From a virus (Duplodnaviria; Caudoviricetes), in IMG/VR virus record IMGVR_UViG_3300037448_000006, positions 1 through 46,101 of that record: DNA of 46,101 bases. One strand, given 5' to 3'. The position numbers and the translations under genes are program-made. Every line of letters begins with the position of its first letter. The first letter of the stretch is position 1. Below the pieces are notes generated by a model. It was given only the letters and a program-made list of their open reading frames with translations. It made no database searches and was not told the origin of the DNA. Of this stretch, positions 519 through 35,772 are shown piece by piece.

Positions 519-571
519 CTCATGCCGACCCATGCAGGACAAGGACCGTTCGTGTCTCCACCTTCCAAGAA

Positions 572-2397: not shown

Positions 2398-2399
2398 GG

Positions 2400-2431: not shown

Positions 2432-2895
2432 GCCCTGATGGTTGCAAAGTACACTCAAGCCCTACAGGGCCCCTTGAGGGGGCCCTGTCCCATTGGTGGA
2501 CTGATGTACGCACCCATGCCTGCGAGGCTGCTGAAGGGCCCTTGTAGGCCCTTCTCGGGGGTCTGTGCTGGCTGGGGGCCGTGCCGGGGGTGCACCTGGT
2601 GGCCGTTATCGGCCTGTGACCTTTCCGTGTCCTTGCCGTGCTCGATCCGGGGTTCCGGACCCCGTAATGTTCTGGGTGTCGGAAGGAGCGGGGAGCACGA
2701 AGACCCGGACACCGCGACCGTTGAGCAGAAGAGCCGTGAACGCCCTTACGGGCCTAACCCAAGGCTTGGATCTCAGAAAGGTCACGAAGTCCGCGAGGGT
2801 CTGGACTGCGACCCGCGAGACCCGGCAGGATCTACCCCAGCACGACGGCCCGGAGGCAACGCCCCTCGAAAGGGGGTGGCCCGAAGTGAGTCGCA

Positions 2896-2913
2896 GTCCC
2901 TTGACAACTGAAC
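2896..2913 (+). promoter_or_regulatory. rrn-leader-like boxA element
   Basis: GTCCCTTGACAACTGAAC resembles the actinobacterial rRNA leader motif GTTCCTTGAGAACTCAAC (from memory); lies in a 700-bp non-coding leader. Confidence 0.5.
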
Positions 2914-3015
2914 CGAACGGCTTGGCCCACCGAGTGACGGGCCACGGCAGGTCCCGAGAGCACCACCAGACGATACACGCTGGTCAGTGTTTACGGTCTG
3001 CCGCTTCTCTCTCCC

Positions 3016-3111
3016 GGACGGGAGTGCACCTTGCTCCCGTCCATTCCCTACGGACAGGGTCTTCGGACCCTGTCCGGTCCAGGGGTGACAGTCCTCAATG
3101 CCTGTCACTCC
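3016..3111 (+). promoter_or_regulatory. Three tandem hairpins ahead of the first early-operon gene
   Basis: Stems at 3016-3042, 3051-3076 (UUCG loop) and 3082-3111. Confidence 0.7.
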
Positions 3112-3142
3112 CGCATCGGTACCCCATAGGGAAGGGAACCCC

Positions 3143-3406
3143 ATGAACACCAATGACTTCGAGTACACGCAGCACATCACCACCGACATGAACCCCGACG
3201 GCTACTGGGTCGGGGTCAACAAGGTGGGTGGTGGCACGGTGGGCCAGAAGTACACCGGCTACTGGGACGCCACCGTGTACGACGGTGACGAGAACGAGCT
3301 GTGGCACACGGACGGCGCGACGGACAGGCACATCTGCACCCGCGTCTTCCAGAACCACCTGTACGCGGCCTGCCTCGCTCTGGATGTGTACGAGGGAACG
3401 CTCTGA
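3143..3406 (+). CDS. hypothetical early protein
   Basis: AGGGAAGGGA RBS, starts MNTNDFEY. Confidence 0.85.
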   Translation: MNTNDFEYTQHITTDMNPDGYWVGVNKVGGGTVGQKYTGYWDATVYDGDENELWHTDGATDRHICTRVFQNHLYAACLALDVYEGTL

Positions 3407-3455
3407 GACATCTTCAAGCACACCCCCGAAGGGGTGTGCTTGGGGGGCATCTCAG
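3403..3455 (+). promoter_or_regulatory. Intergenic long hairpin, copy 1 (RNase III-like site)
   Basis: CTGAGACATCTT...AAGCACACCCC-CGAA-GGGGTGTGCTT...GGGCATCTCAG. Confidence 0.7.
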
Positions 3456-3482
3456 CCTGGATCCTCAGGGAAGGGGAGAAGC

Positions 3483-3851
3483 ATGGCGAGCAACAAGAGG
3501 TACATGGTCGTAGGCAAGTGGTACGGCCAGCGCTGGGCGGATGCGGACTTCGAAGTGTGGGAGTCCGAGTCTCACGCCCGCCATTCGCTCCTGGTTCGTG
3601 ACAACATGAACTGGGATTCGCGGACGCTCCTTCAGGAGGTCAGCGGGTCCTGGGGAGAGTTTCACACCATCTCCCACGTGGAGAATGTCCGCTTCTATGC
3701 GGACAGTCGTGAGACTCGCCGCATCGACATCTACGCCGTGGAGCTGGAGTACGACCCCCGCCTGATGGCGTGGAAGTTCAAGGTCGCCTCCGACCCGTGG
3801 TACCGGCTCACGCTGGGCCCCCGTGGTGGCGTCCGTAAGGAGATGTACTGA
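3483..3851 (+). CDS. hypothetical early protein
   Basis: GGGAAGGGGAGAAG RBS; ends in LTLGPRGGVRKE, a motif familiar from actinophage proteins. Confidence 0.85.
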   Translation: MASNKRYMVVGKWYGQRWADADFEVWESESHARHSLLVRDNMNWDSRTLLQEVSGSWGEFHTISHVENVRFYADSRETRRIDIYAVELEYDPRLMAWKFKVASDPWYRLTLGPRGGVRKEMY

Positions 3852-4147
3852 TGGGCACCCTGAAGAACATCGAGACCGGCGGGATCTTCTGGTACGACCG
3901 GTACGAGAGGGTCAAGGCCAAGCGATGGCTGTTCAGGGCGGAGTACCAGGGCGCCGGGGAGGCCGGAGGGGCTCTCTTGAGGAGTTTCTCCGACCATCCC
4001 GAAGCTCACTACGTCATCCTTATCCAGGATGACGAGCCGTGCATCCACCTGCTGGTGTGGAATCCGGCGAAGTACGACGTGTGCGGCGAGTGCTTCAGCC
4101 GCAAGGATCGCCTGTGTCAATGCGAGGGAGCATCATGGAACGAGTAG
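3851..4147 (+). CDS. hypothetical protein
   Basis: TGATG coupling, AAGGAG RBS. Confidence 0.8.
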   Translation: MGTLKNIETGGIFWYDRYERVKAKRWLFRAEYQGAGEAGGALLRSFSDHPEAHYVILIQDDEPCIHLLVWNPAKYDVCGECFSRKDRLCQCEGASWNE

Positions 4148-4320
4148 CGCGAACGGGGCTCACTGCCTTGATTGGCATGGCCGTCGGCATCACCCTGTCA
4201 TGGGTGAACATCGACAGGCCTGACGAGGTGACCGTGTTCAACTCGGGGTTCTCGGACTCCAAGCAGGACGACTGCCAGCAGGGGTTCATCCCCGCGTGTG
4301 CCTGGCTGAACGGCAAGTGA
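4135..4320 (+). CDS. small membrane protein
   Basis: GAGGGAG RBS; N-terminal hydrophobic helix GLTALIGMAVGITLSWV. Confidence 0.75.
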   Translation: MERVARTGLTALIGMAVGITLSWVNIDRPDEVTVFNSGFSDSKQDDCQQGFIPACAWLNGK

Positions 4321-4321
4321 C

Positions 4322-4376
4322 CTGAGACATCTTTACCAGCAGGGCCTCAAGGCCCTGCTGGTTGAGGGCATCTCAG
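4322..4376 (+). promoter_or_regulatory. Intergenic long hairpin, copy 2
   Basis: Same outer arms as copy 1 (CTGAGACATCTT / GGGCATCTCAG), different inner stem. Confidence 0.7.
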
Positions 4377-4412
4377 TTCTGAGGTGAACAACCCTAGGGA
4401 AGGGAGAAGATC

Positions 4413-4679
4413 ATGGAAACCATCATCTACGTGATGGCGGGGAACGACGTGAACGGCAACCCGCGTCGGGGGTGGATTATCCCCGGTGCTGGTCCGGATC
4501 GTTCGGACGCCTTCGTGGATGAGGGGTACGCGGGGCGCGACGCGCTCTACACGTATCTCCACCTGCCCATGAAGGACAAGAGCCTGAACATCGCTCGCCT
4601 CAACTACGACACGCACGTGACTGAGGTCGTTCTCGACATCACTGTGTCGCAGTACAACAAGTTGAAGCGGGGCAAGTGA
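4413..4679 (+). CDS. hypothetical protein
   Basis: GGGAAGGGAGAAG RBS; NDVNGNPRRGW motif. Confidence 0.85.
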   Translation: METIIYVMAGNDVNGNPRRGWIIPGAGPDRSDAFVDEGYAGRDALYTYLHLPMKDKSLNIARLNYDTHVTEVVLDITVSQYNKLKRGK

Positions 4680-4903
4680 TGGCGAGGAACAAGAGGTTCA
4701 AGCTCACTCGCGTTACCAGCAAGAGGGCGAGCCAGGACACGTTCGAGGTGTTGGACCGGAAGACCGGTCAGCGTTACGCCATCCTGTACCGCCAGAACCA
4801 CGGTGGTTGGCGGTACCGACTGGACAATTACGCTCACCGCATGTCTGCCCTGTTCGCCACTGAGTCGAGCGCCCTGGACGCCATCGAGCGAGAGGTTTTC
4901 TGA
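4679..4903 (+). CDS. hypothetical protein
   Basis: Coupled start; basic ~74-aa ORF. Confidence 0.75.
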   Translation: MARNKRFKLTRVTSKRASQDTFEVLDRKTGQRYAILYRQNHGGWRYRLDNYAHRMSALFATESSALDAIEREVF

Positions 4904-5127
4904 TGGCCATCATCATCAGGATCGAGATCCAGGGAGACCGGAGGGGCGTCAAGCCCTCCGGCTGGCTTGTGCTGGAGTACGGCCAGCCGAACCTGTTCCA
5001 CAGGGATGACGGGCTGATGTCCGTCGCCGAGGTGCAGAAGAAGTACGGCGGGATCGTCAAGGAGACCATCAGGGTCGGGTCCACCGAGTATCAGAGGCTC
5101 CTGGCCAAGTCCGGAGTCCGGGAGTAA
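4903..5127 (+). CDS. hypothetical protein
   Basis: GAGG RBS, TGATG coupling. Confidence 0.8.
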   Translation: MAIIIRIEIQGDRRGVKPSGWLVLEYGQPNLFHRDDGLMSVAEVQKKYGGIVKETIRVGSTEYQRLLAKSGVRE

Positions 5128-5131
5128 GTGT

Positions 5132-5187
5132 CAGTGACCAGTGGCACGGCAGGGTCTTCGGCCCCTGCCGTGTACGCGGCATCACTG
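5132..5187 (+). promoter_or_regulatory. Intergenic long hairpin, copy 3
   Basis: CAGTGA...GCACGGCAGGG-loop-CCCTGCCGTGT...GGCATCACTG. Confidence 0.7.
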
Positions 5188-5209
5188 CCGAAACGGGAGA
5201 GGAGAGATC

Positions 5210-5434
5210 ATGGCATACGCCGAAGAGGTCGTCATTGGTGACCTCATCGCACTCGCCTGGGTAGGCGAGTGCGAGGCTACCGATCTCCTCAAGGTGACCA
5301 CCATCGGGTGGACCGCCGAGGGGAGCATCAAGTTCTTCGGTTACCGAATGATGGGGGACGGCACGACCATCTCCCTGGACCCGATGGCCCCGCATGACGA
5401 ACTGATCTTCTGGCCTGTGAAGGAGTACGTCTGA
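5210..5434 (+). CDS. hypothetical protein
   Basis: GGGAGAGGAGAG RBS, starts MAYAEE. Confidence 0.8.
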   Translation: MAYAEEVVIGDLIALAWVGECEATDLLKVTTIGWTAEGSIKFFGYRMMGDGTTISLDPMAPHDELIFWPVKEYV

Positions 5435-5604
5435 TGGTGTCCTGGAAGAGGCACGGCAAGGTTGAGGCCGACTACCGCGCCCAGGCGGACAAGTACACGT
5501 CCGAGTGGGTGTCCAGCGAGGTGACGGGCGACGAGCCCACGGTGTGGGATCAGATCCAGTCCGCCCCGCCGGTCGCCGGATGGGACAAGGAGGACAAGAA
5601 GTGA
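5434..5604 (+). CDS. hypothetical protein (56 aa, below ORF-track cutoff)
   Basis: AAGGAG RBS, coupled at both ends; MVSWKRHGKVEADYRAQ... Confidence 0.7.
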   Translation: MVSWKRHGKVEADYRAQADKYTSEWVSSEVTGDEPTVWDQIQSAPPVAGWDKEDKK

Positions 5605-5849
5605 GCGTCTACGTGGTCGAGTGGTACATGGACAGCGACAACCGGGTCCGGTCCATGGAGATCGACATCGGCAAGGAGAAGCCCACCAAGGAGACGTTCG
5701 CGTTCTTCATCGAGGCTCGCGAGAGTCTCCAGGGTGAGCGCATCAACGTGTACAACTGGCTGCTTCAGGGCGAGCCCCGCTCGCCGTTCAATCGACTGTG
5801 GGGCGGCTCCAACCCGGGCGGCCCCAAGTCGCTGGCCGACCTTCTGTAG
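5601..5849 (+). CDS. hypothetical protein
   Basis: AGGAGG RBS, GTGA overlap. Confidence 0.8.
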   Translation: MSVYVVEWYMDSDNRVRSMEIDIGKEKPTKETFAFFIEARESLQGERINVYNWLLQGEPRSPFNRLWGGSNPGGPKSLADLL

Positions 5850-5896
5850 TGCAGTCGGATGCACGGCCCGGGCCGTGCATCCTTTCGGCATCACAG
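5844..5896 (+). promoter_or_regulatory. Intergenic long hairpin, copy 4
   Basis: CTGTAGTGC...GGATGCACGGC-CCGG-GCCGTGCATCC...GGCATCACAG. Confidence 0.7.
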
Positions 5897-5922
5897 CGGT
5901 GCCTGAAGGGAAGGGGAGAAGC

Positions 5923-6570
5923 ATGACCGAGGTTCAGAACGCCGTGCCCGAGATCGTCATCAACGGCGTGACGGTGGTGTCCATCGCGGACTACGCGAAG
6001 CGTCGCCACCTCAAGGTGGCGTTCGTGCAGAACACCATGATCAAGGGCGACGACCAGAACCCGAAGATCGAGCCCGTGTACAAGCTCGGCACGACCGGCA
6101 TGTACTCGATCGAGGAGCTGGACGCCGCGTACCTGACTCGCGGTTCCAAGGGGATCACCCTGGCGTCCATGGGCTACCTCCACCCCGCCAAGGCGGTGGA
6201 ACTGGAGTCCCGGATCCGCGAGCTGATCATGGAGAAGGTGGAGATCGGCAACCAGTACAACGACATCTTCAACGACATCCAGGAGCGCGAGGAGGAGCTG
6301 ACGCAGGCTCGGGACGCGCTCTACAAGTCCACGGCCGAACTCCAGGACGTCCAGGAGGAGCTGGCGCGGGTCAAGGCCAGGCTGTTCCGTGCCGAGCAGC
6401 TCATCGAGAGCGGCCAGAAGGAGTACGACAAGGTCTCGGCGGAGCGTGACGAGCTGTTCGCGAAGGTGCGCAAGTACGAGGAACTCGCCCTGGAGAACGG
6501 TCGCAATGCGACCGATGCGGAGCGTGCGGCCGAGACTCTCCGGAGTGCCATCGCCGAGGCGAACAGCTAG
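5923..6570 (+). CDS. putative HTH plus coiled-coil protein
   Basis: N-terminal SIADYAKRRHLK (excisionase/MerR-like HTH appearance) followed by a long E/K/L/R heptad-like region. Confidence 0.8.
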   Translation: MTEVQNAVPEIVINGVTVVSIADYAKRRHLKVAFVQNTMIKGDDQNPKIEPVYKLGTTGMYSIEELDAAYLTRGSKGITLASMGYLHPAKAVELESRIRELIMEKVEIGNQYNDIFNDIQEREEELTQARDALYKSTAELQDVQEELARVKARLFRAEQLIESGQKEYDKVSAERDELFAKVRKYEELALENGRNATDAERAAETLRSAIAEANS

Positions 6571-6574
6571 CAGC

Positions 6575-6627
6575 GTGTGAGCTTCTATCCCCCAGGGCCT
6601 TCAAGCCCTGGGGGCTGATGTCCACAT
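6575..6627 (+). promoter_or_regulatory. Intergenic long hairpin, copy 5 (divergent)
   Basis: GTGTG...CCCCCAGGGC-CTTCAA-GCCCTGGGGG...CACAT. Confidence 0.6.
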
Positions 6628-6656
6628 GATGTGCATGAGGACGGGAAGGGGGAAGC

Positions 6657-7187
6657 ATGGCGAAGGGCGACGAGATCGACGCCATTTGCCGCATCCTGGA
6701 CAAGGAGTGGCCGGAGGACACGGTCAACGAGACCGTTGCCGCCGCGATCCTCAAGGCGGTGGACGCCACAAGGAGTACCCTGTGGAGGCCCCTGGGGGCC
6801 CCCCTGAAGCCCGGGATGGCCTTCAAGGGTATATGGTCCAGTACGACCTGGATCGTGGCCTGGATAGGCCCTGCGGAGCCTCAGGGACGTGAGATGGCGT
6901 GGCTGGTCCACGCCTCGGCGGACTACGGGGCCATTCAGCCGGTGGAGTCACGGGCGTGGCAGTGGACTTCCCCTGCCGCGATCAGGGATGCCACCAAGGA
7001 GAAGATCCTGACCAACGAGCTGGGCATGGTGGCCGGTGACAAGGTGACCATGCGGCAGGACGGGCAGTATCTCATTGAGGCTGTCTTCTCCCGTGGGGTG
7101 CTCATGCGCTCCCGTCGCACCGGCATGGTGTGGGCAGAGACGAACGGCGGCCTGGAGAAGTACTACAAGGACGGATGGAAGAGTTGA
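6657..7187 (+). CDS. hypothetical protein
   Basis: GGGAAGGGGGAAG RBS, 176 aa. Confidence 0.85.
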   Translation: MAKGDEIDAICRILDKEWPEDTVNETVAAAILKAVDATRSTLWRPLGAPLKPGMAFKGIWSSTTWIVAWIGPAEPQGREMAWLVHASADYGAIQPVESRAWQWTSPAAIRDATKEKILTNELGMVAGDKVTMRQDGQYLIEAVFSRGVLMRSRRTGMVWAETNGGLEKYYKDGWKS

Positions 7188-7378
7188 ACAACCAGAAGTG
7201 GTTCCTCGCGTGGGACGCGCCGGACGGCAGGGAGTGCATGGTTCAGGGGGACGGCAACTACTACGACGCCGTCAAGTGGGCCGACGCCAAGCTGCAGCCC
7301 GGCGTTCAGTGCTTCATCTCCGTCGTCGGTGATGACAGTCTCGACACCTACGGCTACAGCGTCAAGGAGGGCAAGTGA
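7175..7378 (+). CDS. hypothetical protein
   Basis: AAGGA RBS, starts MEELNNQKW. Confidence 0.7.
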   Translation: MEELNNQKWFLAWDAPDGRECMVQGDGNYYDAVKWADAKLQPGVQCFISVVGDDSLDTYGYSVKEGK

Positions 7379-7557
7379 CCGAGCGTCGCAAGCAGGCGTA
7401 CCAGGAGTTCTACGCCGTCACCATGGGCTCCAGTGCTCAGTACGTGCTGGAGAGGATCGTCCGGGAGGGCGTGAACACGGACTTCCTGAGCGACTCCTAC
7501 CCGGCCAGCGGCCGGGATCACAAGTGGCACATCAAGATCGAGATTACGGAGGTCTGA
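7375..7557 (+). CDS. hypothetical protein
   Basis: AAGGAGG RBS, GTGA overlap. Confidence 0.8.
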   Translation: MTERRKQAYQEFYAVTMGSSAQYVLERIVREGVNTDFLSDSYPASGRDHKWHIKIEITEV

Positions 7558-7558
7558 C

Positions 7559-7675
7559 ATGGCCGACTTCATCGGAACGCTCGCGGTCGCCCTCCTCGGA
7601 CTGACCAGCATCGTGACCAGCTCGACCATCAACAACCTGCGCAAGCGGATCGAGCGACTGGAGCGTAAGCAGTAA
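7559..7675 (+). CDS. small membrane peptide
   Basis: GGAGG RBS; MADFIGTLAVALLGLTSIVTSSTINNLRKRIERLERKQ. Confidence 0.7.
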   Translation: MADFIGTLAVALLGLTSIVTSSTINNLRKRIERLERKQ

Positions 7676-7860
7676 TGCAGATCGCGTTCAACATCATCGC
7701 CCTGATCCTGTTCGGTGGGCTCGCCGGTGCGAACGCCGTCCTCCGCGTGAAGGTGGAGTTGGCACTCGACCACATGGCCTGGCAGGAGAAGCGAATCAGC
7801 AGACTGGAGGAGCGCTTCCCGCTCAAGCCCGAGGAGGTCTCCAAGTACTGCGGTGACTGA
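7675..7860 (+). CDS. small membrane protein
   Basis: N-terminal TM helix plus RISRLEE coiled segment, similar to the upstream peptide. Confidence 0.75.
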   Translation: MQIAFNIIALILFGGLAGANAVLRVKVELALDHMAWQEKRISRLEERFPLKPEEVSKYCGD

Positions 7861-7899: not shown

Positions 7900-7909
7900 G
7901 ATTGGCCTG

Positions 7910-8284
7910 TCAGTCCATCCAGCGACCGTGGGGAGTGAAGGTGCGCGGCGCGGCGAACTTGGTGAACTGCACGGTGATGGTCTGCTGGCCGTGAATGGTG
8001 GTGGACGACTCGTGGGAGGTCACCCGCACGCCGTGAGTACGCTCCAGCTTGCCCAGCTCCCGGGTCAGGGCTTCCACCAGGCCGCGAGCCTGGATCTGCT
8101 TCTCAGCGGCAGCCTTCTCGGCCTGCCGCTTGGCGTGATCCCTGGCGATCTGCTCCTCCCGCTCCCGCTTCTCGCGCTGAACGGCGGCGTACTTGATCTT
8201 CTCCAGGTTCGCTTGAGCCTCGGTCGCCTGCTGCTTCCAGTGGCTGCGGTTCGCCCGCTCTTCGTCGGTGTACTTCGGGTCCAT
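7910..8284 (-). CDS. hypothetical coiled-coil protein
   Basis: GGAG RBS, coupled to the sigma gene. Confidence 0.8.
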   Translation of the reverse strand: MDPKYTDEERANRSHWKQQATEAQANLEKIKYAAVQREKREREEQIARDHAKRQAEKAAAEKQIQARGLVEALTRELGKLERTHGVRVTSHESSTTIHGQQTITVQFTKFAAPRTFTPHGRWMD

Positions 8285-17219: not shown

Positions 17220-17626
17220 CCGACAGCCGCGTCGCCCGTGGGCGCAAGACTCAGGTCATCGCCGCCGACTACCTCAAGCCCGTGTTCCCCGACGCCGAGA
17301 GCCGTGCCGCCTCCCTGGGCGGCACGGACATCCTGAACACTCCCGGCTGGGCACTGGAGGTCAAGGGTCGCCGGGAGTTCAAGCCCACCGAGTGGTCCAA
17401 GCAGATGGTCAAGAACACGAACCGTGACTTCGACTGGTCCGCCTGCATCATGCGGCCCGACGGGTACGGGGAGGCGAAGGTCGGCCAGTGGGTGACCTTC
17501 ATGCTGTTCGAGGACTTCCGGGCACTGATCGGCTGCATGCAGCGGCTGGAGCGAGAGGTGGAGCGACTTGAATCAGAGAACCTCGGCCTTCTCTTCCCAC
17601 TCCTTTCCGATCAGCCCGATCCTTGA
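17216..17626 (+). CDS. Holliday junction resolvase (PD-(D/E)XK type)
   Basis: SRVARGRKTQ..ADYL, GTDIL, LEVKGR. Confidence 0.8.
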   Translation: MTDSRVARGRKTQVIAADYLKPVFPDAESRAASLGGTDILNTPGWALEVKGRREFKPTEWSKQMVKNTNRDFDWSACIMRPDGYGEAKVGQWVTFMLFEDFRALIGCMQRLEREVERLESENLGLLFPLLSDQPDP

Positions 17627-17981
17627 GCACTACGGGTTCGACCCCGTAGAGGAAGACCGTGGCTGGCACGACGTGAGGTGCGCCTTTCACGGGGACCGCA
17701 GCGCCTCAGGGCGCGTGCGGTCCGACGAGTCCGAGGAGCAGGTGTTCACGTGCCTCGCATACGACACCTGCCCTCGGGGCAACGCAGTCCAGATCATCAT
17801 GGCCAAGGAAGGGTGCGAGTACCGGGATGCTGTCGAGCGAGCAGAGGAAATCACTGGAGTCAGCGGCGGACCGGTACGCCGATCATCTCGAACTCGCCAT
17901 GCCGTACCTCGCGAAGCGAGGTCTGAGTCGGCAGTCAGCGTCTTCCGTCGGACTTGGCTTCGTGAAGAGGCCGACGAGTGA
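17568..17981 (+). CDS. DNA primase, Zn-binding (CHC2) part
   Basis: CAFHGDRSAS...FTCLAYDTC..GNAVQIIMAKEG. Confidence 0.85.
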   Translation: MNQRTSAFSSHSFPISPILEHYGFDPVEEDRGWHDVRCAFHGDRSASGRVRSDESEEQVFTCLAYDTCPRGNAVQIIMAKEGCEYRDAVERAEEITGVSGGPVRRSSRTRHAVPREARSESAVSVFRRTWLREEADE

Positions 17982-18492
17982 CGAGCCCGACCTGCTGCCG
18001 GGGCACGAGAAGTATATCGGTCGACTCTCCATCCCGTACGTCACCAGGGCGGGCGTGATCGGCTTCAAGTTCCGGTGCATCAAGTGTGCCGGTGACTGCG
18101 TGGGGCACGCCAAGTACCTGAATACATCGGGATGGGAGACGCGGTTCTACAACACGCTCGACCTCCACGAGGACACGTTGGACATCCATGTGGCGGAGGG
18201 TGAGTTCGACACCGTCACCCTGTCCACCCTGTGCGGCCTGCCCGCTGTCGGCATCCCCGGTGCCACCAACTGGAAGCCGTGGTGGAAGGAGATCCTGGAG
18301 GATTTCCGGTGGATCTACGTGTTCTGCGACAGCGATTCGGCGGGGAGTGGCCTGGGGCGCAAGCTCCAGAAGGAGCTTGGCCGGAAGGTTGTCCTGCTGG
18401 AGTTCGACGAGCCGGACATGGATGTGAACAGCATGTATGTGAAGCGCGGCCGGGAGTTCATCCGGTCCATGATCCCCAAGGAGAGCAAGTGA
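17827..18492 (+). CDS. DNA primase, TOPRIM part
   Basis: YLAKRG, RLSIPY, KYLN, VAEGEFD, GIPGA and CDSDSAG. Confidence 0.9.
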   Translation: MLSSEQRKSLESAADRYADHLELAMPYLAKRGLSRQSASSVGLGFVKRPTSDEPDLLPGHEKYIGRLSIPYVTRAGVIGFKFRCIKCAGDCVGHAKYLNTSGWETRFYNTLDLHEDTLDIHVAEGEFDTVTLSTLCGLPAVGIPGATNWKPWWKEILEDFRWIYVFCDSDSAGSGLGRKLQKELGRKVVLLEFDEPDMDVNSMYVKRGREFIRSMIPKESK

Positions 18493-18656
18493 GCCAGGTC
18501 TACATCCTGTGGTGGGAGAACGAAGACGGGGACTGGGACTTCATCTCGGCCCACGCGACCCGCGAGTCGGCCGAGGATGCGATGGAGGAGGAGCTGGCCT
18601 CCGACCCTGACTGCGAGTACTACACCACCCCGCTGACCCTGAAGGAGAGCAAGTGA
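18489..18656 (+). CDS. acidic hypothetical protein
   Basis: AAGGAG RBS; MSQVYILWWE...SAHATRESAE. Confidence 0.75.
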   Translation: MSQVYILWWENEDGDWDFISAHATRESAEDAMEEELASDPDCEYYTTPLTLKESK

Positions 18657-18901
18657 GCGACGAAGAGCGGTGGGCTGTCTATCTGGACTTCAATCACACG
18701 AACGACAGGATCAGGATCGTCTACACGATCCCGCTGGGCGGGACGATCGGAAGTCGAGAGCAGGCGCGAATCCATCTTGGCCAGATGCAGTTCGGTGACG
18801 TCGCCAGCGACTACTGGGAGGTCGACGAGCTGGAACTCCCGCACGGCTACAAGTTCCAGACGTACTACGTAGCGCGGTACTTCGACGGCGACGAGAAGTG
18901 A
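18653..18901 (+). CDS. hypothetical protein
   Basis: AAGGAG RBS, GTGA overlap. Confidence 0.75.
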   Translation: MSDEERWAVYLDFNHTNDRIRIVYTIPLGGTIGSREQARIHLGQMQFGDVASDYWEVDELELPHGYKFQTYYVARYFDGDEK

Positions 18902-19320
18902 TGGCCCGCCCAGACTGGGCCGAGACATGGCTGTCCGTCGCCCGGGTCATGGCTGAGCGCTCCCTGTGTGCACGGCGCCAGGTAGGCGCCGTGCTGGTCA
19001 AGGACAATCGGATCATCTCGACCGGCTATAACGGAACTCCGCCCGGAGAGGCGGAGTGCCTTGACGGAGGGTGCCCCCGAGGAGGGCTCACAGGGCCCCT
19101 TCCGGAGGACTACAACGCCTACCCCTGCCTGGGTATCCACGCGGAGGCGAACGCCCTTCTGAGGGCCGGTTCTGTGGCTTCCGGAAGCGTGCTCTACTGC
19201 ACGCACAGACCGTGTCCGCAGTGCCAGAACCTGATCATGGGCGCCGGGGTGGGCATGGTCGTATGGCCTGGCCATGTGAACCTGGGCCAGTGGTGGCCGA
19301 GGAACGGAAGGCTGCCCTAG
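18901..19320 (+). CDS. deoxycytidylate (dCMP) deaminase
   Basis: RSLCARRQVGAV, STGYNG, HAEANAL and PCPQC. Confidence 0.93.
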   Translation: MARPDWAETWLSVARVMAERSLCARRQVGAVLVKDNRIISTGYNGTPPGEAECLDGGCPRGGLTGPLPEDYNAYPCLGIHAEANALLRAGSVASGSVLYCTHRPCPQCQNLIMGAGVGMVVWPGHVNLGQWWPRNGRLP

Positions 19321-19394
19321 TGTGTCTGGACTGCGAGGGCCAGTACGATGACGACGAGTTCGACGACTACGATGAGGAGGAGGCCGATGAGTGA
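19320..19394 (+). CDS. 24-aa acidic peptide
   Basis: MCLDCEGQYDDDEFDDYDEEEADE, coupled on both sides. Confidence 0.5.
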   Translation: MCLDCEGQYDDDEFDDYDEEEADE

Positions 19395-19659
19395 CACCGA
19401 GGCTGAAGAGGGCGACCTGATCTTCACGAAGTACGGGTTCTACATCTTCGTGAAGTTCGGCGCCAGGTACAATCAGCGCGGGATCAGCGGTCCGAAGCGG
19501 GTCTACGCCCGATACGTCCACAGTGACGGGCGGATCGACGAGAAGGCCACTGCTGCCCCTTACGAGTACCTGGTCATCGCCCGTCCGGGCAAGACCCTCG
19601 GCGGAGTCTGGGAGAACGGCTACCTGAAGGTGGCCATGGACGCCTGGCGGGAAGTGTAG
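19387..19659 (+). CDS. hypothetical protein
   Basis: GGAGGAGG RBS. Confidence 0.8.
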   Translation: MSDTEAEEGDLIFTKYGFYIFVKFGARYNQRGISGPKRVYARYVHSDGRIDEKATAAPYEYLVIARPGKTLGGVWENGYLKVAMDAWREV

Positions 19660-19663
19660 GAAA

Positions 19664-19689
19664 GGTGGCGGCCCCTGAAGGCCGCCACC
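19664..19689 (+). terminator. GC-rich hairpin (no U-tract)
   Basis: GGTGGCGGCC-CCTGAA-GGCCGCCACC. Confidence 0.6.
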
Positions 19690-19693
19690 CAAT

Positions 19694-19754
19694 GGGCTGT
19701 GATATGGGTCGGAACCAGTGCACGGGTTCAGGGGGTTCGAGTCCCTCCAGTCCA
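19694..19754 (+). ncRNA. Mini tRNA-like RNA with alanine identity (tmRNA-TLD-like, no D stem)
   Basis: Acceptor GGGCTG/CAGTCC+A with G3.U; T arm GGGGG-TTCGAGT-CCCTC; middle stem GAACC/GGTTC with TGC in an 8-nt loop. Confidence 0.65.
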
Positions 19755-19782
19755 CGCAAGTACAAGTCCACAAGGAGGAACT

Positions 19783-19914
19783 ATGGTCCAGAAGGTACCC
19801 ATCAACTCCGGCTGCGCGAAGTCGCCGAACGGACGCCACACCTGGGAGAACGGCCGTGACGATGCCGGACGCATCGTCACCTGGTGCCGCTACTGCCACA
19901 ACCTTCCGAAGTAG
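19783..19914 (+). CDS. Zn-ribbon microprotein
   Basis: AAGGAGG RBS; CAKSPNGRHTW...WCRYC. Confidence 0.75.
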   Translation: MVQKVPINSGCAKSPNGRHTWENGRDDAGRIVTWCRYCHNLPK

Positions 19915-19923
19915 GAGGACATC

Positions 19924-20082
19924 ATGGGACGACGGAGCAAGGCGGACTACCGGATCGTGGACCGTGACAGCATCTGCCAGGTCACGGGCAAGGGGCACAT
20001 CCCGACCACGATCGAGCGCATGGAGGACGGAGCGCACGTGAAGTTCCACGTGTGCAAGGAGTGCGGGGGTCACATCCGGTGA
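19924..20082 (+). CDS. Zn-ribbon microprotein
   Basis: AGGAGG RBS; CQVTGKGH...VCKECG. Confidence 0.75.
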   Translation: MGRRSKADYRIVDRDSICQVTGKGHIPTTIERMEDGAHVKFHVCKECGGHIR

Positions 20083-20297
20083 TGGGTTACGACGGGGAGG
20101 AGGATGGCCCCTTCGGCCATCCTCTGGGCGGGTACGACATCAAGCTGATGGCTGAGCAGTTGGCCGCTACCATGGAGACCATCATGGGTCTCCAGCTCGA
20201 AGTGCAGACACTCAAGAGCCAGATCGACGGGATGACGTTAGTCGGACCGTCCAACGTGGTGCAGTTCCAGCCCCGCAACAGGAGGAACGATGGCTGA
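20082..20297 (+). CDS. hypothetical protein containing a TTA codon
   Basis: Coupled start; ends SNVVQFQPR...; in-frame TTA at 20238. Confidence 0.7.
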   Translation: MGYDGEEDGPFGHPLGGYDIKLMAEQLAATMETIMGLQLEVQTLKSQIDGMTLVGPSNVVQFQPRNRRNDG

Positions 20298-20505
20298 CAA
20301 GCTCTTCGACCACTGGTTCGTCCACCTGGACCAGGACAGCGGCAACAGTGTGGTGGGCCCGTTCAGTTCGAAGGATGCGCGAGAGACGGCGGAGCTGATG
20401 GTGGCCAACCGTGACGCCCAGGGCTACCGGATGGTCAAGACCGGCGCGCTCAGGTGGGAGTCGGAGACTCACTTCCTGACGATCGAAGTGAAGGCGAGTC
20501 GCTGA
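20290..20505 (+). CDS. hypothetical protein
   Basis: AGGAGG RBS. Confidence 0.8.
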   Translation: MADKLFDHWFVHLDQDSGNSVVGPFSSKDARETAELMVANRDAQGYRMVKTGALRWESETHFLTIEVKASR

Positions 20506-20750
20506 TGGCGCGCGCCATGTGGGACACGACGGAGGTCTACCGGGCATCCGTGAGGCACAAGGCTCCGTGGATGGAGTCGGGCGAGATGACTTCCTTCTAC
20601 GGACCGTACGAGGGTCCTGCCGGCAAGAGTCACGCGAAGCGCCGGATCAGGGATCAGCACGGGAGCGTGATCGAGGGCAAGGTGCAGAGGCTTGCCTGCG
20701 TCCATGACGGCAACGGCCCCGATCTTCAGTGGGTGGACGTCGATGAGTAG
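20505..20750 (+). CDS. hypothetical protein (paralog A)
   Basis: VYR..GPY..VQRL..QWVDVD. Confidence 0.8.
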   Translation: MARAMWDTTEVYRASVRHKAPWMESGEMTSFYGPYEGPAGKSHAKRRIRDQHGSVIEGKVQRLACVHDGNGPDLQWVDVDE

Positions 20751-20991
20751 GACCATGAAGCCGGAGAACACCGACATCTACCGGTGCGTCCAGGTGGAGC
20801 GGTACGCCGATGGGCGAACCTTCGAGGTGGTCGTGGGCCCGTATCCCACGACACAGTGGCTCAAGGGATCGACCGGCGCCCGTGGTCGAGTGGTCTCCCG
20901 CAGGATCCAGAGGCTGGAAGCCAAGCTGTCGTACGACTATGACGACAATGGCTTCGCTGCGGGACTGGAGTGGGTGGACGTCGATGGCTGA
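20743..20991 (+). CDS. hypothetical protein (paralog B)
   Basis: IYR..GPY..IQRL..EWVDVD. Confidence 0.8.
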   Translation: MSRTMKPENTDIYRCVQVERYADGRTFEVVVGPYPTTQWLKGSTGARGRVVSRRIQRLEAKLSYDYDDNGFAAGLEWVDVDG

Positions 20992-21148
20992 CCAGGATCC
21001 CATCACACAGGAGGATCTGCGCAACCTTGGTTTCGCTCTCTATACTGCGGGGTGCTGGACCGAGGGATCCCTGGCGCGGGCCTTCATCAAGATCGGTCAG
21101 GAGATCATCGACTTCGTTGACGGGATGAACGGGGAGGCTGATGACTGA
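20984..21148 (+). CDS. hypothetical protein
   Basis: Overlapping start MADQDPIT. Confidence 0.7.
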   Translation: MADQDPITQEDLRNLGFALYTAGCWTEGSLARAFIKIGQEIIDFVDGMNGEADD

Positions 21149-21242
21149 GGTCTACGACAACCGAAAGTGCCCCGAGTGCGGGGGCAAGCTGAGCCACAAG
21201 ATCGACTGTCCCCGCAGGGACTGGAGGCCGAGCCGTGGATAG
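21141..21242 (+). CDS. CxxC-H-C microprotein
   Basis: GGAGG RBS; KCPECGGKLSHKIDCP. Confidence 0.65.
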   Translation: MTEVYDNRKCPECGGKLSHKIDCPRRDWRPSRG

Positions 21243-21408
21243 GCAAGTCGTCCGCTTCTGCATCGAGGGTTCCGTCTCCCGTCACAACGATTCCCGTGAC
21301 GAAGTCGACGACGAGCAGTGGGATTTCCTGGTGAGCAAGATCCGGTCCATACTCGTGGAGCACGAGTACCTCATGGACAGCCTGAGGATCGAGGAGAGGC
21401 AGTGGTGA
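21235..21408 (+). CDS. hypothetical protein (57 aa)
   Basis: GGAGG RBS; MDRQVVRFCIEGSVSRHN... Confidence 0.65.
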   Translation: MDRQVVRFCIEGSVSRHNDSRDEVDDEQWDFLVSKIRSILVEHEYLMDSLRIEERQW

Positions 21409-21491
21409 GTCTCATCGACGTCCTGATCTGCCGGGAGTGCCGAAGGCCACTCCCGAACCACGACGCACTGTGTAGGAGGTGGCGGGGATGA
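21405..21491 (+). CDS. CxxC-H-C microprotein
   Basis: MSLIDVLICRECRRPLPNHDALCRRWRG. Confidence 0.6.
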   Translation: MSLIDVLICRECRRPLPNHDALCRRWRG

Positions 21492-21565
21492 TCGAGACGT
21501 GCCACTGGTGCGGCCTGGAGCGCGGTCACGCACCGAGGTGTCCGCACTACGGAGGCGGACAGTGA
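21488..21565 (+). CDS. CxxC-H-C microprotein
   Basis: AGGAGGT RBS; MIETCHWCGLERGHAPRCPHYGGGQ. Confidence 0.6.
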   Translation: MIETCHWCGLERGHAPRCPHYGGGQ

Positions 21566-21726
21566 GTCCTGAGGAGGTGCGGATCGAGATCAACCGCATC
21601 GACCTGGAACACTGGAACGCGGTCGATGCCCTGATCGACCGCGCCAAGAGCGCCGGAGTGGACCTCGACTACGACTGGCACGACGGCATACACAAGATCG
21701 ACGGGAAGTGGATCGATGAGTCCTGA
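21562..21726 (+). CDS. hypothetical protein (MSPE start)
   Basis: GGAGG RBS. Confidence 0.7.
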   Translation: MSPEEVRIEINRIDLEHWNAVDALIDRAKSAGVDLDYDWHDGIHKIDGKWIDES

Positions 21727-21940
21727 GCAGGACAGGTTCAACCGTCTCGCGGTCGAGTTCTGGAAGGAGTGCTGCGAAGCTCTCAAGCCCATCGAGGAGC
21801 GGTACGGCATGGAGCGCGTTGTCAGCGGTTACGAGTACGACGACGATGTGAGTTCACTCGGCCCGAAGTGGACGCGCTGGATGTCCCGTCCCGTCTACTC
21901 GATCGAGGACGAGATCGCGAGGGGCGCGGATGAGTCCTGA
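21716..21940 (+). CDS. hypothetical protein (MSPE start)
   Basis: 11-nt overlap with the upstream gene. Confidence 0.75.
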   Translation: MSPEQDRFNRLAVEFWKECCEALKPIEERYGMERVVSGYEYDDDVSSLGPKWTRWMSRPVYSIEDEIARGADES

Positions 21941-22091
21941 GGAGTGGGCCTTCAAGATCAGTGAGCTGATCAAGGAGTGCGAGAAGGACGGCTACAGCGT
22001 CGACGTGACGACGGAGGGCGATCTGACCATCTGGGTGGATGAGGCTCTCGATCCCGAACAGGTGGCGTCACCCATCTTCATCACTTGGTGA
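21930..22091 (+). CDS. hypothetical protein (MSPE start)
   Basis: GAGG RBS; MSPEEWAFKISELIKECEKDGY... Confidence 0.7.
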   Translation: MSPEEWAFKISELIKECEKDGYSVDVTTEGDLTIWVDEALDPEQVASPIFITW

Positions 22092-22094
22092 ACG

Positions 22095-22127
22095 CAAAGA
22101 AGCCCCCCTCTTTCGAGGGGGGCTTCT
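22095..22127. terminator. Terminator between the converging genome arms
   Basis: AGAAGCCCCCCTC-TTTC-GAGGGGGGCTTCT; U-rich tail on the - strand. Confidence 0.9.
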
Positions 22128-22135
22128 GTCGTTGC

Positions 22136-22450
22136 CTAGTAGAGCGCCTTCGCGACCCACTCCGTGCCGGTGTTCACGATCACCGCACCGTGGAAGGCGG
22201 AGGCCGCGAGTACCAGCGTGGTGGCGCCGTTGATGGTCTCGGAGGCGTTCGCGTCGATGGTGACGGTGAACGCGGCGCCGTCCTTGGTGATGCTGTAGGA
22301 GCGGCCCGGGATCGTGGTCGCGACGGGCGGGAGGTTCACCAGGATGTTGCCGGTGATGCCCTTCGCGTAGATGTCGTAGTCGTTGTCGGTCGCCGTGGTG
22401 GTGGCAGTGATGACCCGAACGGTCTCGGAGGTGTTGTCGAAGCCGGACAT
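22136..22450 (-). CDS. putative virion structural/decoration protein
   Basis: Thr/Ala-rich beta protein (VNLPP...GRSY.I...ETING). Confidence 0.8.
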   Translation of the reverse strand: MSGFDNTSETVRVITATTTATDNDYDIYAKGITGNILVNLPPVATTIPGRSYSITKDGAAFTVTIDANASETINGATTLVLAASAFHGAVIVNTGTEWVAKALY

Positions 22451-22451
22451 G

Positions 22452-22649
22452 TCAGCCCTTCGCTAGTGCGGCAGTGTTGGGATCGCCGATCTTCTTGGCG
22501 ATCAGAACCTTGACGGTCGTGAGGAGCACCGTGCCGACCGGGATCCACACCTCCGGCAGGTCGTTGATGTAAACGGCAGCCGCCGAGGCGGCTGCCGAGA
22601 CTGAGGTCCACAGAATGCGTTCCACGGCATCCTTGACGTACTCACGCAT
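22452..22649 (-). CDS. holin
   Basis: KDAVERILWT, two hydrophobic helices, C-terminal IGDPNTAAL (r1t-like holin pattern). Confidence 0.8.
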   Translation of the reverse strand: MREYVKDAVERILWTSVSAAASAAAVYINDLPEVWIPVGTVLLTTVKVLIAKKIGDPNTAALAKG

Positions 22650-31240: not shown

Positions 31241-31361
31241 TGACTTGCTCCCTTGTCTTGGATGTGTTGGCGAACGCTAACGCCGTCCGTAGGGGACGGA
31301 CGGCGAGACTCGCTCTACCGGTCTTGAGTGTCGTGATCGGGGCCGGTGGGTCCGATCAGAG

Positions 31362-31433
31362 CTGACCAAACAGGATTCGAACCTGTAACCAAAGCCTTAA
31401 CAGGACTCTGCTCTACCGTTGAGCTATTGGTCA
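31362..31433 (-). tRNA. tRNA-Asn(GTT)
   Basis: TGACCAA-TA-GCTC AACGGTA GAGC-A-GAGTC CTGTTAA GGCTT-TGGTT-ACAGG TTCGAAT CCTGT-TTGGTCA-G; CCA not encoded. Confidence 0.93.
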
Positions 31434-31504: not shown

Positions 31505-31562
31505 TGCACCTGAGGGAATCGAACCCCCAACACTGTGCGCACAGTGCCATCCGTTGCGGTGC
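31505..31562 (-). ncRNA. Second mini tRNA-like element / degenerate tRNA
   Basis: GCACC...GGTGC-A acceptor; T arm GGGGG-TTCGATT-CCCTC; CACTG/CAGTG middle stem; no D stem. Confidence 0.55.
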
Positions 31563-33579: not shown

Positions 33580-34873
33580 TGATCACCCCCCAGTCCTTCA
33601 GGATGCCCCTGCCGATGGACATCGTCTTGTCCTGCGCTTGCTTGGTCTGACGCCAGCGGGGATCTCCGCGAAGGAGATCCTGGAACTCGGTCAGTGTCTT
33701 GCCGACCGGCTTGCCGTCCTTGTCGAGGCCGTTGAGCCCGGACATGATGGTCGGATCGCGCAGGCCGATCTCTTCCGGATTCAGCTCCAGAGACTGAGCC
33801 ATGGTCTGCACGTACGGGTTCGCGATGGACTTCACCGTCTGGCCGGACTTGATCTGCTCACCGAAGGCAGGGAAGGCCGAAGCCGCCTGCTCGTTGATCC
33901 AGTTCTTGAAGTCCTGCTGGGTGCTCATGCCCTTCAGCATGAGCTGGGCATGGTTCTTGATCGCCTGCTGGCCGATCGACACACCCATGTCACTGGCGTA
34001 CTGCCGCATGCCAAGCTCGAACATCCCGGCCTGTCCTGACAGGGTGTTGTTCGTGAAGTCCACATAGTCCGCAAGGATCTTCTTGATAGCACCGTCGTCC
34101 ATGCCGAGCATCTCGATCTGCTCCGACAGTGACGGGATGACACCATCAGGGACTGCCGCACCCATCTCGGCGGCCATATCCCTGATGCGCTGGCTGTTCG
34201 CAAGCATGGCGGCCGACCACGTTGCCGGGTCGGCCTGCTTCGTCTCCAGCGCCTTGCGCGCCGTGTCCGAGTTGTTCTTCCAGAAGTCGGTCTCGCGAAG
34301 CTTCGCCTGGAACTTGTCCGGCGTCATGGTCTCCGACACAGCCTGGTCGAACAGACCCTTGAGGCTCGGCTCGCTGTTCAGGAAGCTGAATGCAAGACCG
34401 TACTGGGCGGACAGCTCCTCCGAGGAGAGCTTCTTCTCGACAACAGTCTGCGTCTCCCAGTCCGTATTGGCCGGACCTCCGCCCTCCACGCCGTCGAACC
34501 TCCTCCCGCCCATGAAGCGGGAGGAGTAGTAGGAGTCCGTCATGTCGGAAACCTTGACCACATCGCCGGTCTTCGGCGCGTGAAGGAACTTGCCGCCACC
34601 GATGTAGATGCCCACATGATCCGGACCGCCAGTAGAGCGGTCCGTGTCGAAGAACACGGCATCGCCCACCTGGAGATCGTTCATGCCGACACCGCGACCC
34701 TGGTTGATCTGGTCGTAGGTGACACGGGCGATATCCACACCGAACTTCTTGAAGCCCTGCTGAAGAAGGCCGGAGCAGTCGATCCCGCCGGAGAGGCTAT
34801 TGCCTCCCCAGGCGTACGGAGTACCACGGAACTGCATCAGATAGTCCACGACATCCTGACCACGAACAGCCAT
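33572..34873 (-). CDS. virion-associated NlpC/P60 peptidoglycan hydrolase
   Basis: GTPYAWGG, DCSG, HVGIY and HAP catalytic motifs. Confidence 0.92.
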   Translation of the reverse strand: MAVRGQDVVDYLMQFRGTPYAWGGNSLSGGIDCSGLLQQGFKKFGVDIARVTYDQINQGRGVGMNDLQVGDAVFFDTDRSTGGPDHVGIYIGGGKFLHAPKTGDVVKVSDMTDSYYSSRFMGGRRFDGVEGGGPANTDWETQTVVEKKLSSEELSAQYGLAFSFLNSEPSLKGLFDQAVSETMTPDKFQAKLRETDFWKNNSDTARKALETKQADPATWSAAMLANSQRIRDMAAEMGAAVPDGVIPSLSEQIEMLGMDDGAIKKILADYVDFTNNTLSGQAGMFELGMRQYASDMGVSIGQQAIKNHAQLMLKGMSTQQDFKNWINEQAASAFPAFGEQIKSGQTVKSIANPYVQTMAQSLELNPEEIGLRDPTIMSGLNGLDKDGKPVGKTLTEFQDLLRGDPRWRQTKQAQDKTMSIGRGILKDWGVISA

Positions 34874-35772
34874 CAGTACCCCCTGGCGAGGGTCTGCATC
34901 ATGGCCTGGTAGTAGGTGGTGGCCGCCTGATAGGCGCCGTACTCCTTGTTCTGCTTCAGCTGGTCCTGCGCGAGCATGGCCCGGGCCTGCTCACTGACGC
35001 CGCCCTGAGTGTTACTCGTTGACGTGCTACTCGTGTCACCGCCACCACCAGCCCCTCCAGGCTGGGTGGTGCTCGTCTGAGTGCTCGTGGTGACTCGGGG
35101 GTTCTTGCGCTCGTAGGCGTTCAGCGAGCCCAACAGCGTGGTCACCTCCTGCCTCGTGGGATCCCTGCCCAGCAGGGACCTGGCCGCCTGCTGAGCGATG
35201 TACGCGGCATCCTCACGGGTCGAGATGTCCAGAGCGGTAGAAGTGCTCGTGGACGTGGAGGTGGTCGGCCCCTGGCGCTCACGGTTGGCACGATCCATGG
35301 ACATCACGTCCCACGGGGTCAGGGCCTTGCCGTTCCCGTTCTGCCAGTACGCACCGGCCTGGGCCACGTACGAAGCCCAAGCCTTCTGGATCTGGGCGTC
35401 CGACATGCGATCCACCTCGGCGCCGGTGAGAGCCAGCTCCGAGCGGAACTTCTGCTTGGTCGGCTCGTCCCACAGGTAGTACTGATTGGAGACATCGCTG
35501 TAGCTCTTGACGTCAGGCGTTCCGTAGCCAGCCCTGTTCCGGGCCACAGCCTTGTCCGACTCACCAGCAATCGCCTCACCCGACCGCCCCATGAGGGGGG
35601 CGGTCGGAGACTTGCGCCCCAGGAAGACGGGGGGATTGTCCGGATCGTAGTACGCGGGCGCATTCGCCTGGCTCTGTGCCTGCGCATCACGGACGGCCTT
35701 GATGTCCTTGGAGTTGCTCGGAACCGTCGGGGACGGGAGAGGACCCGACGGGCCAGGAGTGGGTGTGCTCAT
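34873..35772 (-). CDS. internal virion protein
   Basis: 299 aa; LLGRDPT; S/T-rich linkers. Confidence 0.8.
   Translation of the reverse strand: MSTPTPGPSGPLPSPTVPSNSKDIKAVRDAQAQSQANAPAYYDPDNPPVFLGRKSPTAPLMGRSGEAIAGESDKAVARNRAGYGTPDVKSYSDVSNQYYLWDEPTKQKFRSELALTGAEVDRMSDAQIQKAWASYVAQAGAYWQNGNGKALTPWDVMSMDRANRERQGPTTSTSTSTSTALDISTREDAAYIAQQAARSLLGRDPTRQEVTTLLGSLNAYERKNPRVTTSTQTSTTQPGGAGGGGDTSSTSTSNTQGGVSEQARAMLAQDQLKQNKEYGAYQAATTYYQAMMQTLARGY

What the first reader, a model, noticed from the sequence alone, without database searches (positions are those of the whole stretch)
19694..19754. 61-nt alanine-identity mini-tRNA resembling the tRNA-like domain of tmRNA without its mRNA domain
Seen: an intergenic RNA with acceptor GGGCTG/CAGTCC followed by A, a canonical T arm (GGGGG-TTCGAGT-CCCTC), a 12-nt loop with GG where the D stem should be, and a GAACC/GGTTC stem with an 8-nt TGC-containing loop. 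Known: G1-C72, G2-C71, G3.U70, C4-G69 and A73 are the AlaRS identity set, and a D-stem-less Ala acceptor plus T arm is the architecture of the tmRNA tRNA-like domain bound by SmpB. Inference: it could be a phage TLD mimic (an SmpB/AlaRS decoy, or tag-free ribosome rescue), a decoy for tRNA-targeting defence nucleases, or an RNase P processing signal for downstream genes. The acceptor is one bp short, so standard tRNA scanners may miss it.
Basis: partly seen in the sequence, partly recalled or inferred. Interest (0 to 1): 0.85.

Follow-up and report, generated by a model that had tools for sequence, protein, structure and literature searches.

The report
Non-decoding phage tRNA top-half element
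A soil phage related to Streptomyces phages carries a real 61-base, tRNA-shaped unit that has lost its codon-reading parts and likely tells the host's tRNA-cutting enzymes where to cut the phage message; it is not a copy of the ribosome-rescue RNA, and whether it is loaded with alanine is untested.

Summary
The unit is real (0 in 200 shuffles; T stem paired in 40 of 40 cells across 8 aligned sequences). The window is a complete genome of a cluster BF-like Streptomyces podophage. At the same site relatives carry a graded series: true tRNA-Arg(CCU), D-arm RNAs with stunted anticodon arms, and a 42-nt minihelix; none has a full tRNA-Ala. It fails the tmRNA tests: no Rfam tmRNA match (DS6A control 43 bits), no UCGAC loop or GAC connector, 11 rather than 12 stacked pairs. 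Alanine marks are real (G3.U70 in 7 of 13 relatives' units). But the 11-pair form mostly goes without them: a second mimic in this genome and 20 repeats upstream of genes in cluster BD/R phages. Best reading (0.45): an RNase P-type processing signal descended from a tRNA. Rival (0.27): a charged alanine decoy. Nothing on expression was testable. The scan noted anticodon-less alanine mimics before on other DNA; the 11-pair repeats and a palindrome-bearing subfamily were not found there or in ten paper searches.

The parts
19694..19754 (+). tRNA-like unit, position 1 to discriminator A73 (61 nt); 6-bp acceptor + 5-bp T stem = 11 stacked pairs
19694..19699 (+). acceptor 5' strand; pairs with 19748-19753; G3.U70
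19693..19693 (+). U at -1; can pair with A73 and shift the register out of alanine identity
19700..19711 (+). collapsed D region, 12 nt with GG; a weak 4-bp hairpin is possible
19712..19729 (+). 5-bp arm with 8-nt loop (no U33, cannot decode); self-complementary hexamer at 19718-19723
19731..19747 (+). T arm with canonical 7-nt loop
19755..19758 (+). trailer after A73 (C74, no encoded CCA); R73-C74-G75 in 7 of 7 units at this site
19664..19689 (+). 10-bp GC hairpin ending 4 nt before position 1; a hairpin of different sequence stands here in 6 of 7 relatives' units; likely protects the upstream mRNA end or terminates
19783..19914 (+). 43-aa Cys/His ORF starting 28 nt after A73, with ribosome-binding site; kept next to the unit in L002 and L008 only
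19924..20082 (+). 52-aa Cys/His ORF, kept in L002 and L008
18898..19320 (+). dCMP deaminase, upstream in the same early/replication gene run
31505..31562 (-). second non-decoding tRNA-like unit of the same layout (11 pairs incl. one G.A, 9-nt GG loop, arm with 16-nt palindrome, 1-nt linker, T arm), no G3.U70; nearly identical in L008; upstream of tRNA-Asn and the scaffold/capsid genes

Best explanation
This is a tRNA-derived, non-decoding unit that keeps only the acceptor and T arm and likely acts in cis as a cutting signal: host RNase P would cut at position 19694 in the phage early transcript. The upstream hairpin would then protect the 3' end of the replication-gene message, and the small genes downstream would get their own processed message, either with the structure left as a 5' cap or after a second cut and CCA addition. 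Shown: the sequence, its conservation pattern, its position and its kin. Inferred: transcription, cutting, the enzyme, the fate of the RNA. The alanine marks are inherited from a 12-pair ancestor; this copy has slipped to 11 pairs and may or may not be charged.
For: (1) At this site 7 distinct units keep top half, T loop and R73-C74 while the interior runs from 12 to 41 nt and from a true tRNA-Arg to a bare loop; the T stem covaries (40 of 40 cells paired, 8 double changes, 0 of 500 shuffles). (2) It lies between same-strand genes, 4 nt after a hairpin and 28 nt before a start codon; no sigma-70-like promoter in 17500-22500. A strong hairpin of unrelated sequence directly precedes 6 of 7 units. 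(3) 3 of the 7 lack G3.U70. (4) The genome's second mimic has the same layout without G3.U70 and persists where the ~20-tRNA cluster of BF phages has shrunk to one tRNA or none. (5) In four cluster BD/R phage regions 20 of 22 T arms close into an 11-pair unit, 1 of 20 with G3.U70; 13 of 14 checked lie 24-69 nt before a start codon, 9 in one genome region. (6) Among short IMG/VR units a 6-bp acceptor occurs in 3 of 62 with G.U but 13 of 28 with G-C. (7) Acceptor+T-arm hairpins are RNase P substrates and R73-C74 anchors the cut (passages of PMC11143913); t-elements set mRNA ends this way (passages of PMC1920247).
Against: G.U sits at pair 3:70 in 7 of 13 BF units and at 2 of 71 other acceptor pairs (units are related, registers set by hand); processing enzymes do not need it. 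Across IMG/VR short, fully paired units favour G.U (36) over G-C (12) and A-U (1). The site is empty in L015, L017-L021, L370/L371 and all 7 cultured BF phages read, so it is dispensable there. RNase P measures 12 pairs, so 11 pairs is not the ideal substrate. The BD repeats have no consistent upstream hairpin. This copy folds weakly. The promoter scan does not cover most Streptomyces or phage promoters.
Confidence: 0.45

Rival explanations
1. The released RNA gets CCA, is charged by host AlaRS (which ignores the anticodon) and works in trans as a charged, non-decoding tRNA decoy, for example for defence enzymes or factors that grip acceptor ends or the elbow.
For: Acceptor pairs 1-4 and A73 are invariant in window, L002, L008 and the distant L022 while pairs 5-7 and the interior change. 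G.U is concentrated at 3:70 (7 of 13 versus 2 of 71); among Manuel's 19 annotated tRNAs only tRNA-Ala has it. G1-C72, G2-C71, G3.U70, A73 are the conserved tRNA-Ala set (passages of PMC9976931). 36 versus 12 versus 1 in IMG/VR.
Against: 59 of 62 G.U units keep a 7-bp acceptor; this one does not. U-1 can pair with A73 and move the G.U to 4:69. 3 of 7 orthologues lack G.U; the Cas4-WhiB-site units have G73 and toggle C/U at 70. No target is identified.
Confidence: 0.27
2. A decaying tRNA-Arg-derived pseudogene; this copy is the most worn member and does nothing.
For: True tRNA-Arg(CCU) at this site in L011/L013/L016/L292 and an odd Arg(ACG) form in L009; one C lost from the T-stem run explains 12 to 11 pairs; z -0.62; site empty in many relatives.
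Against: T stem and acceptor stay fully paired with compensatory changes while the interior is rewritten; the 11-pair form recurs in 20 of 20 closed BD/R units, 5 of 6 Cas4-WhiB units and 3 of 3 late-strand units.
Confidence: 0.14
3. The RNA dimerises through its self-complementary loop, like a family of 53-64 nt alanine-type phage RNAs that carry a palindrome in place of the anticodon arm.
For: 14 of 22 such units have a perfect hexamer palindrome within 6 nt of the T stem versus 2.5 expected, maximum 7 in 500 shuffles; controls 0 of 6 and 0 of 4. Predicted homodimer -58.9 versus 2 x -21.9 kcal/mol. The second mimic also has a palindrome, conserved in L008.
Against: Length class and distance were chosen after seeing the data; an independent acceptor set gave 6 of 45 versus 5.2. 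Here the palindrome lies 7 nt from the T stem, has chance 0.12, and is absent from L002 and L008. The family model does not discriminate: L002 and L008 outscore the window.
Confidence: 0.08
4. A TLD-only tmRNA mimic that binds SmpB and blunts tagging, like the DS6A RNA.
For: Same topology (acceptor, stemless GG loop, arm, T arm) and G3.U70/A73; DS6A's RNA is described as inhibiting tmRNA (passages of PMC4131195 and PMC11915505); the likely host genus has tmRNA-SmpB (abstract of PMC2635970).
Against: No RF00023 match versus 43.2 bits for DS6A; no UCGAC, no GGAC/GCAC connector, 11 pairs; closest relatives have full D stems.
Confidence: 0.06

Closest known systems
t-elements of plant mitochondria (PMC1920247, passages read)
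   Same: T arm plus closed acceptor, non-canonical interior, placed at mRNA boundaries; proposed cis signal for RNase P/Z
   Different: here in a phage of bacteria; 11-pair top half; RNA ends not mapped; carries alanine marks
TLD-only tmRNA of mycobacteriophage DS6A (PMC4131195, PMC11915505, passages read; Mao 2009 not seen)
   Same: phage-encoded, anticodon-less, G3.U70, A73, stemless D region, one arm before the T arm
   Different: DS6A has 7+5 pairs, UCGAC, a GCAC connector and matches RF00023; this unit has none of these and descends from a tRNA
tRNA-Ala identity set (PMC9976931, passages read)
   Same: G1-C72, G2-C71, G3.U70, A73
   Different: 6-bp acceptor, no D stem, 8-nt loop without U33, no CCA, alternative U-1:A73 register
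Odd 'tRNA-OTHER/Pro/Leu' calls between WhiB and Cas4 genes of cultured cluster BF phages
   Same: early strand, stunted anticodon arm, upstream hairpin, R73-C74, mostly 11 pairs
   Different: different site, D arm kept, G73; annotated as ordinary tRNAs or missed
Bacterial Y RNAs, YrlA (PMC4201824, passages read)
   Same: tRNA-mimic ncRNA also found in actinophages
   Different: YrlA has T before D and lies near Ro60; no Ro60 among 38 ORFs scanned here

Membership tests
TLD-only tmRNA | G3.U70 and A73 | tested here: met
   (in the register starting at 19694)
TLD-only tmRNA | 7-bp acceptor + 5-bp T stem | tested here: not met
   6+5 here; DS6A 7+5
TLD-only tmRNA | match to Rfam tmRNA models | tested here: not met
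   none at E<=10, no clan overlap dropped; DS6A 43.2 and 34.7 bits
TLD-only tmRNA | GG..UCGAC in the D region and GGAC-type connector before the T stem | tested here: not met
   motif absent, connector is one A
TLD-only tmRNA | binds SmpB | not testable with these tools
   needs binding assay
tRNA-Ala | 7-nt anticodon loop with U33 and a D arm | tested here: not met
tRNA-Ala | acceptor identity set | tested here: inconclusive
   present, but U-1:A73 pairing (0.72) offers a non-alanine register
t-element-like processing signal | canonical T-arm motif with closed acceptor, free interior | tested here: met
t-element-like processing signal | inside a same-strand gene run at a gene boundary | tested here: met
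t-element-like processing signal | mapped mRNA ends coincide with its ends | not testable with these tools
   no RNA run listed
11-pair repeat of cluster BD phages (found here) | 11 stacked pairs, R73-C74, just upstream of a gene | tested here: met
11-pair repeat of cluster BD phages (found here) | 5+6 pairs with an 11-nt GGCA loop, many copies | tested here: not met
   6+5 pairs, 31-nt interior, two dissimilar mimics per genome
Palindrome-bearing alanine-type mimics (found here) | hexamer palindrome within 6 nt of the T stem, D hairpin, 7-bp acceptor | tested here: inconclusive
   palindrome at 7 nt, chance 0.12, absent in closest relatives; 6-bp acceptor
Y RNA (YrlA) | T arm 5' of D arm; Ro60 gene nearby | tested here: not met

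The most novel reading that the evidence does not exclude
Streptomyces phages use a dedicated 11-pair tRNA top-half module, in up to nine copies per genome region, as a host-RNase-P-cut device that sets or shields phage mRNA ends. This unit is a tRNA caught converting into that module via an alanine-chargeable, anticodon-less stage.
Probability: 0.33. Interest if true: 0.75.

Novelty: new variant of a known kind. Interest (0 to 1): 0.5.

Why it matters
If the processing reading holds, phages punctuate their messages with stripped tRNA shapes that standard scanners miss or mislabel, and cultured Streptomyces phages (clusters BD and BF) make this testable at once by end mapping. The series at one site, from true tRNA-Arg to a 42-nt minihelix, shows which parts of a tRNA a phage keeps when decoding is dropped. 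If the alanine decoy reading holds, it would explain why anticodon-less phage RNAs converge on G3.U70. This single copy is not itself a new ribosome-rescue system.

Tried and rejected
Exact pattern of the unit in IMG/VR: 0 hits. BLAST of the unit against 50,697 phage records: no full-length homologue; one 31-nt hit led to the BD repeats. Primase-profile scans returned 160 loci, mostly distant phages; they added only the tRNA-Arg type and L022 again. No RNA holder listed; the one DNA run matches the region but may be the source of the window. Three covariance models score the unit 30.9, 36.1 and 24.1 bits, mostly through the top half, so they do not assign a family. Y RNA for the second mimic (Rfam E 0.38): rejected, no Ro60. 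Palindrome as a general trait: failed in the independent set. One search used a mis-registered structure and is superseded; one search's automatic registers were wrong for L010, L144, L573 and late L008 and are superseded. ARAGORN's tRNA-Arg(CCG) calls in L020/L021 overlap the tail gene and were rejected. Paper searches found no description of these BF or BD units; the Verabelle paper has none of the terms tRNA, repeat, motif. The 2013 actinophage comparison paper was not held and may describe the BD repeats.

Full report
Setting. The window is a complete 46.1-kb virus record with direct terminal repeats, held by a soil metagenome run that may be its source. Its capsid protein is 71-74% identical to those of Streptomyces cluster BF podophages such as Manuel and Immanuel3, with the same gene order. 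The host is therefore likely a streptomycete (inference). The unit lies on the early/replication strand after primase and dCMP deaminase.

Observation. A T arm closed by an acceptor occurs twice in the window and 0 times in 200 shuffles. Scanners miss it. Four cautions. T19693 can pair with A19754 (0.72), which would move the G.U to pair 4:69. No CCA is encoded. The copy folds no better than shuffles (z -0.62). The T stem is only 0.35 probable in the unmodified ensemble.

Relatives at the same site. A tail-protein search gave 16 loci; L012 and L014 do not reach the site. Seven distinct units were found, counting the window. L008 (tail 75% identical) has a 7-bp acceptor with G3.U70, A73, a full D arm and a 6-nt loop on the anticodon stem. 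L002/L007 (80%) has the same marks and a stunted anticodon arm. L022 is a 42-nt minihelix with G3.U70. L009 is an odd Arg(ACG)-like RNA with A3-U70. L010 has a tetraloop for an anticodon arm, G3-C70 and G73. L011/L013/L016/L292 carry a true tRNA-Arg(CCU). L015, L017-L021 and L370/L371 have none. No relative has a full tRNA-Ala. Window, L007 and L008 form one clade (100/100); L022 lies apart on a long branch. The shared trailer R-C-G after the last pair fixes G19694 as position 1 by homology. The T stem is paired in 40 of 40 cells with 8 double changes. L008's best BLAST matches are mostly tRNA-Arg, so an Arg origin is likely but not shown. Loss of one C from the T-stem run is enough to turn L008's 12 stacked pairs into the window's 11 (inference).

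Not a tmRNA head. The window's unit has none of these and no tmRNA match at E<=10. Its closest relatives have D stems. It shares the topology only.

The case for alanine. A pattern forcing G3.U70 returned 120 IMG/VR loci of about 130; 36 of 107 distinct matches were fully paired short units. The G3-C70 control gave 12 of 46 and the A3-U70 control 1 of 68. Among 13 BF units (7 here, 6 at the WhiB-Cas4 gap; duplicates L007, L013, L016, L292 and Abafar dropped; registers set by hand) G.U is at 3:70 in 7 and at 2 of 71 other acceptor pairs. These are related sequences, so the P value overstates the case. The alanine set is the conserved one (passages of PMC9976931). So many phage mimics are likely selected to be charged. 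That AlaRS needs no anticodon is established knowledge (recalled).

The case for a cis processing role. First, 3 of 7 units at this site lack G.U, yet 7 of 7 keep the T loop and R73-C74, and 6 of 7 follow a strong hairpin of unrelated sequence. There is no room for a promoter between hairpin and unit, so the unit must be cut out of a longer transcript. Second, the genome has another mimic of the same layout at 31505-31562 without G.U, conserved in L008, at the place where BF phages keep about 20 tRNAs. Third, all 7 cultured BF phages read have a stunted-anticodon unit between WhiB and Cas4, annotated as Pro, Leu, OTHER or not at all; 5 of the 6 distinct ones have 11 pairs and all have G73. Fourth, a BLAST hit led to a repeat in cluster BD phages: 113 Streptomyces phage records match at E<=10 (chance hits included). 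In four regions read, 20 of 22 T arms close into 5+6 pairs around an 11-nt loop, with G.U at 3:70 in 1 of 20 (the parser tried 11 or 12 pairs and preferred R73-C74). 13 of 14 checked lie 24-69 nt before a start codon; the window's unit lies 28 nt before one. Fifth, in the IMG/VR sets a 6-bp acceptor goes with G-C (13 of 28), not G.U (3 of 62). The window's copy has the alanine letters but the geometry of the non-alanine class.

Palindromes. Among 22 G.U units of 53-64 nt, 14 have a hexamer palindrome within 6 nt of the T stem, of ten different sequences, versus 2.5 expected. This looks like a real subfamily selected for self-pairing, but the class was defined after seeing the data and an independent acceptor set showed nothing (6 of 45 versus 5.2). 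The window's palindrome is 7 nt from the T stem, has chance 0.12 and is absent from L002 and L008. I keep it as a minor rival.

Verdict. Real, maintained, tRNA-derived, non-decoding. Works most likely like a t-element (0.45); charged alanine decoy 0.27; decay 0.14; dimer 0.08; TLD mimic 0.06. It is not a member of the TLD-only tmRNAs. Transcription, cutting and charging are all untested. Ten paper searches found no account of the BF or BD units, but the library lacks most subscription papers, one relevant comparison paper was not held, and Mao 2009 was seen only as cited. I read no supplements. Earlier scan notes report similar alanine mimics in other genomes and nothing on this genome or the BD repeat. 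Interest 0.5.

Noticed in passing
L696 (Aaronocolus) 440-7710 minus strand; L697 (phiHau3); L001 (Verabelle) 2149-5704; L698 (Send513) 5312: Stereotyped tRNA-like minihelix repeat (5+6 pairs, 11-nt GGCA loop, T loop, R73-C74), 9 copies in 9 kb of Aaronocolus, nearly always 24-69 nt before a gene; unannotated; matches in 113 Streptomyces phage records at E<=10. Not found in my paper searches.
   Followed up: partly
L028, L044, L046, L057, L059, L069, L071, L072, L087, L088, L099, L101, L103 (each near 1501-1561 or as): Family of 53-64 nt alanine-type phage RNAs: 7-bp acceptor, D hairpin, then a self-complementary hexamer of varying sequence in place of the anticodon arm (14 of 22 versus 2.5 expected); predicted to form tail-to-tail homodimers.
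   Followed up: partly
window 31505-31562 minus; L008 3351-3408; L007 3684-3753: Second non-decoding tRNA-like unit ahead of tRNA-Asn and the scaffold/capsid genes, with a 16-nt palindrome identical in L008; a conserved promoter-like motif lies about 60 nt upstream.
   Followed up: partly
L005 34094-34161, L143 about 7900-8000, L144 7320-7389, L572-L575 (WhiB-Cas4 gap): All 7 cultured BF phages read carry a stunted-anticodon tRNA-like unit here, mis-annotated as Pro/Leu/OTHER or missed; the window has no gap at this place.
   Followed up: yes
   Followed up: partly
window 31361-31433 minus: Only one true tRNA (Asn, GTT) remains where cultured BF phages have about 20.
   Followed up: no
window 19783-19914 and 19924-20082: Two tiny Cys/His ORFs (C-x6/7-H ... 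CxxC), no PHROG or Pfam match, kept in L002 and L008.
   Followed up: partly
window 34873-35772 minus: Late-region ORF with weak, below-cutoff Pfam hits to APOBEC-like families (E 0.005-0.008).
   Followed up: no
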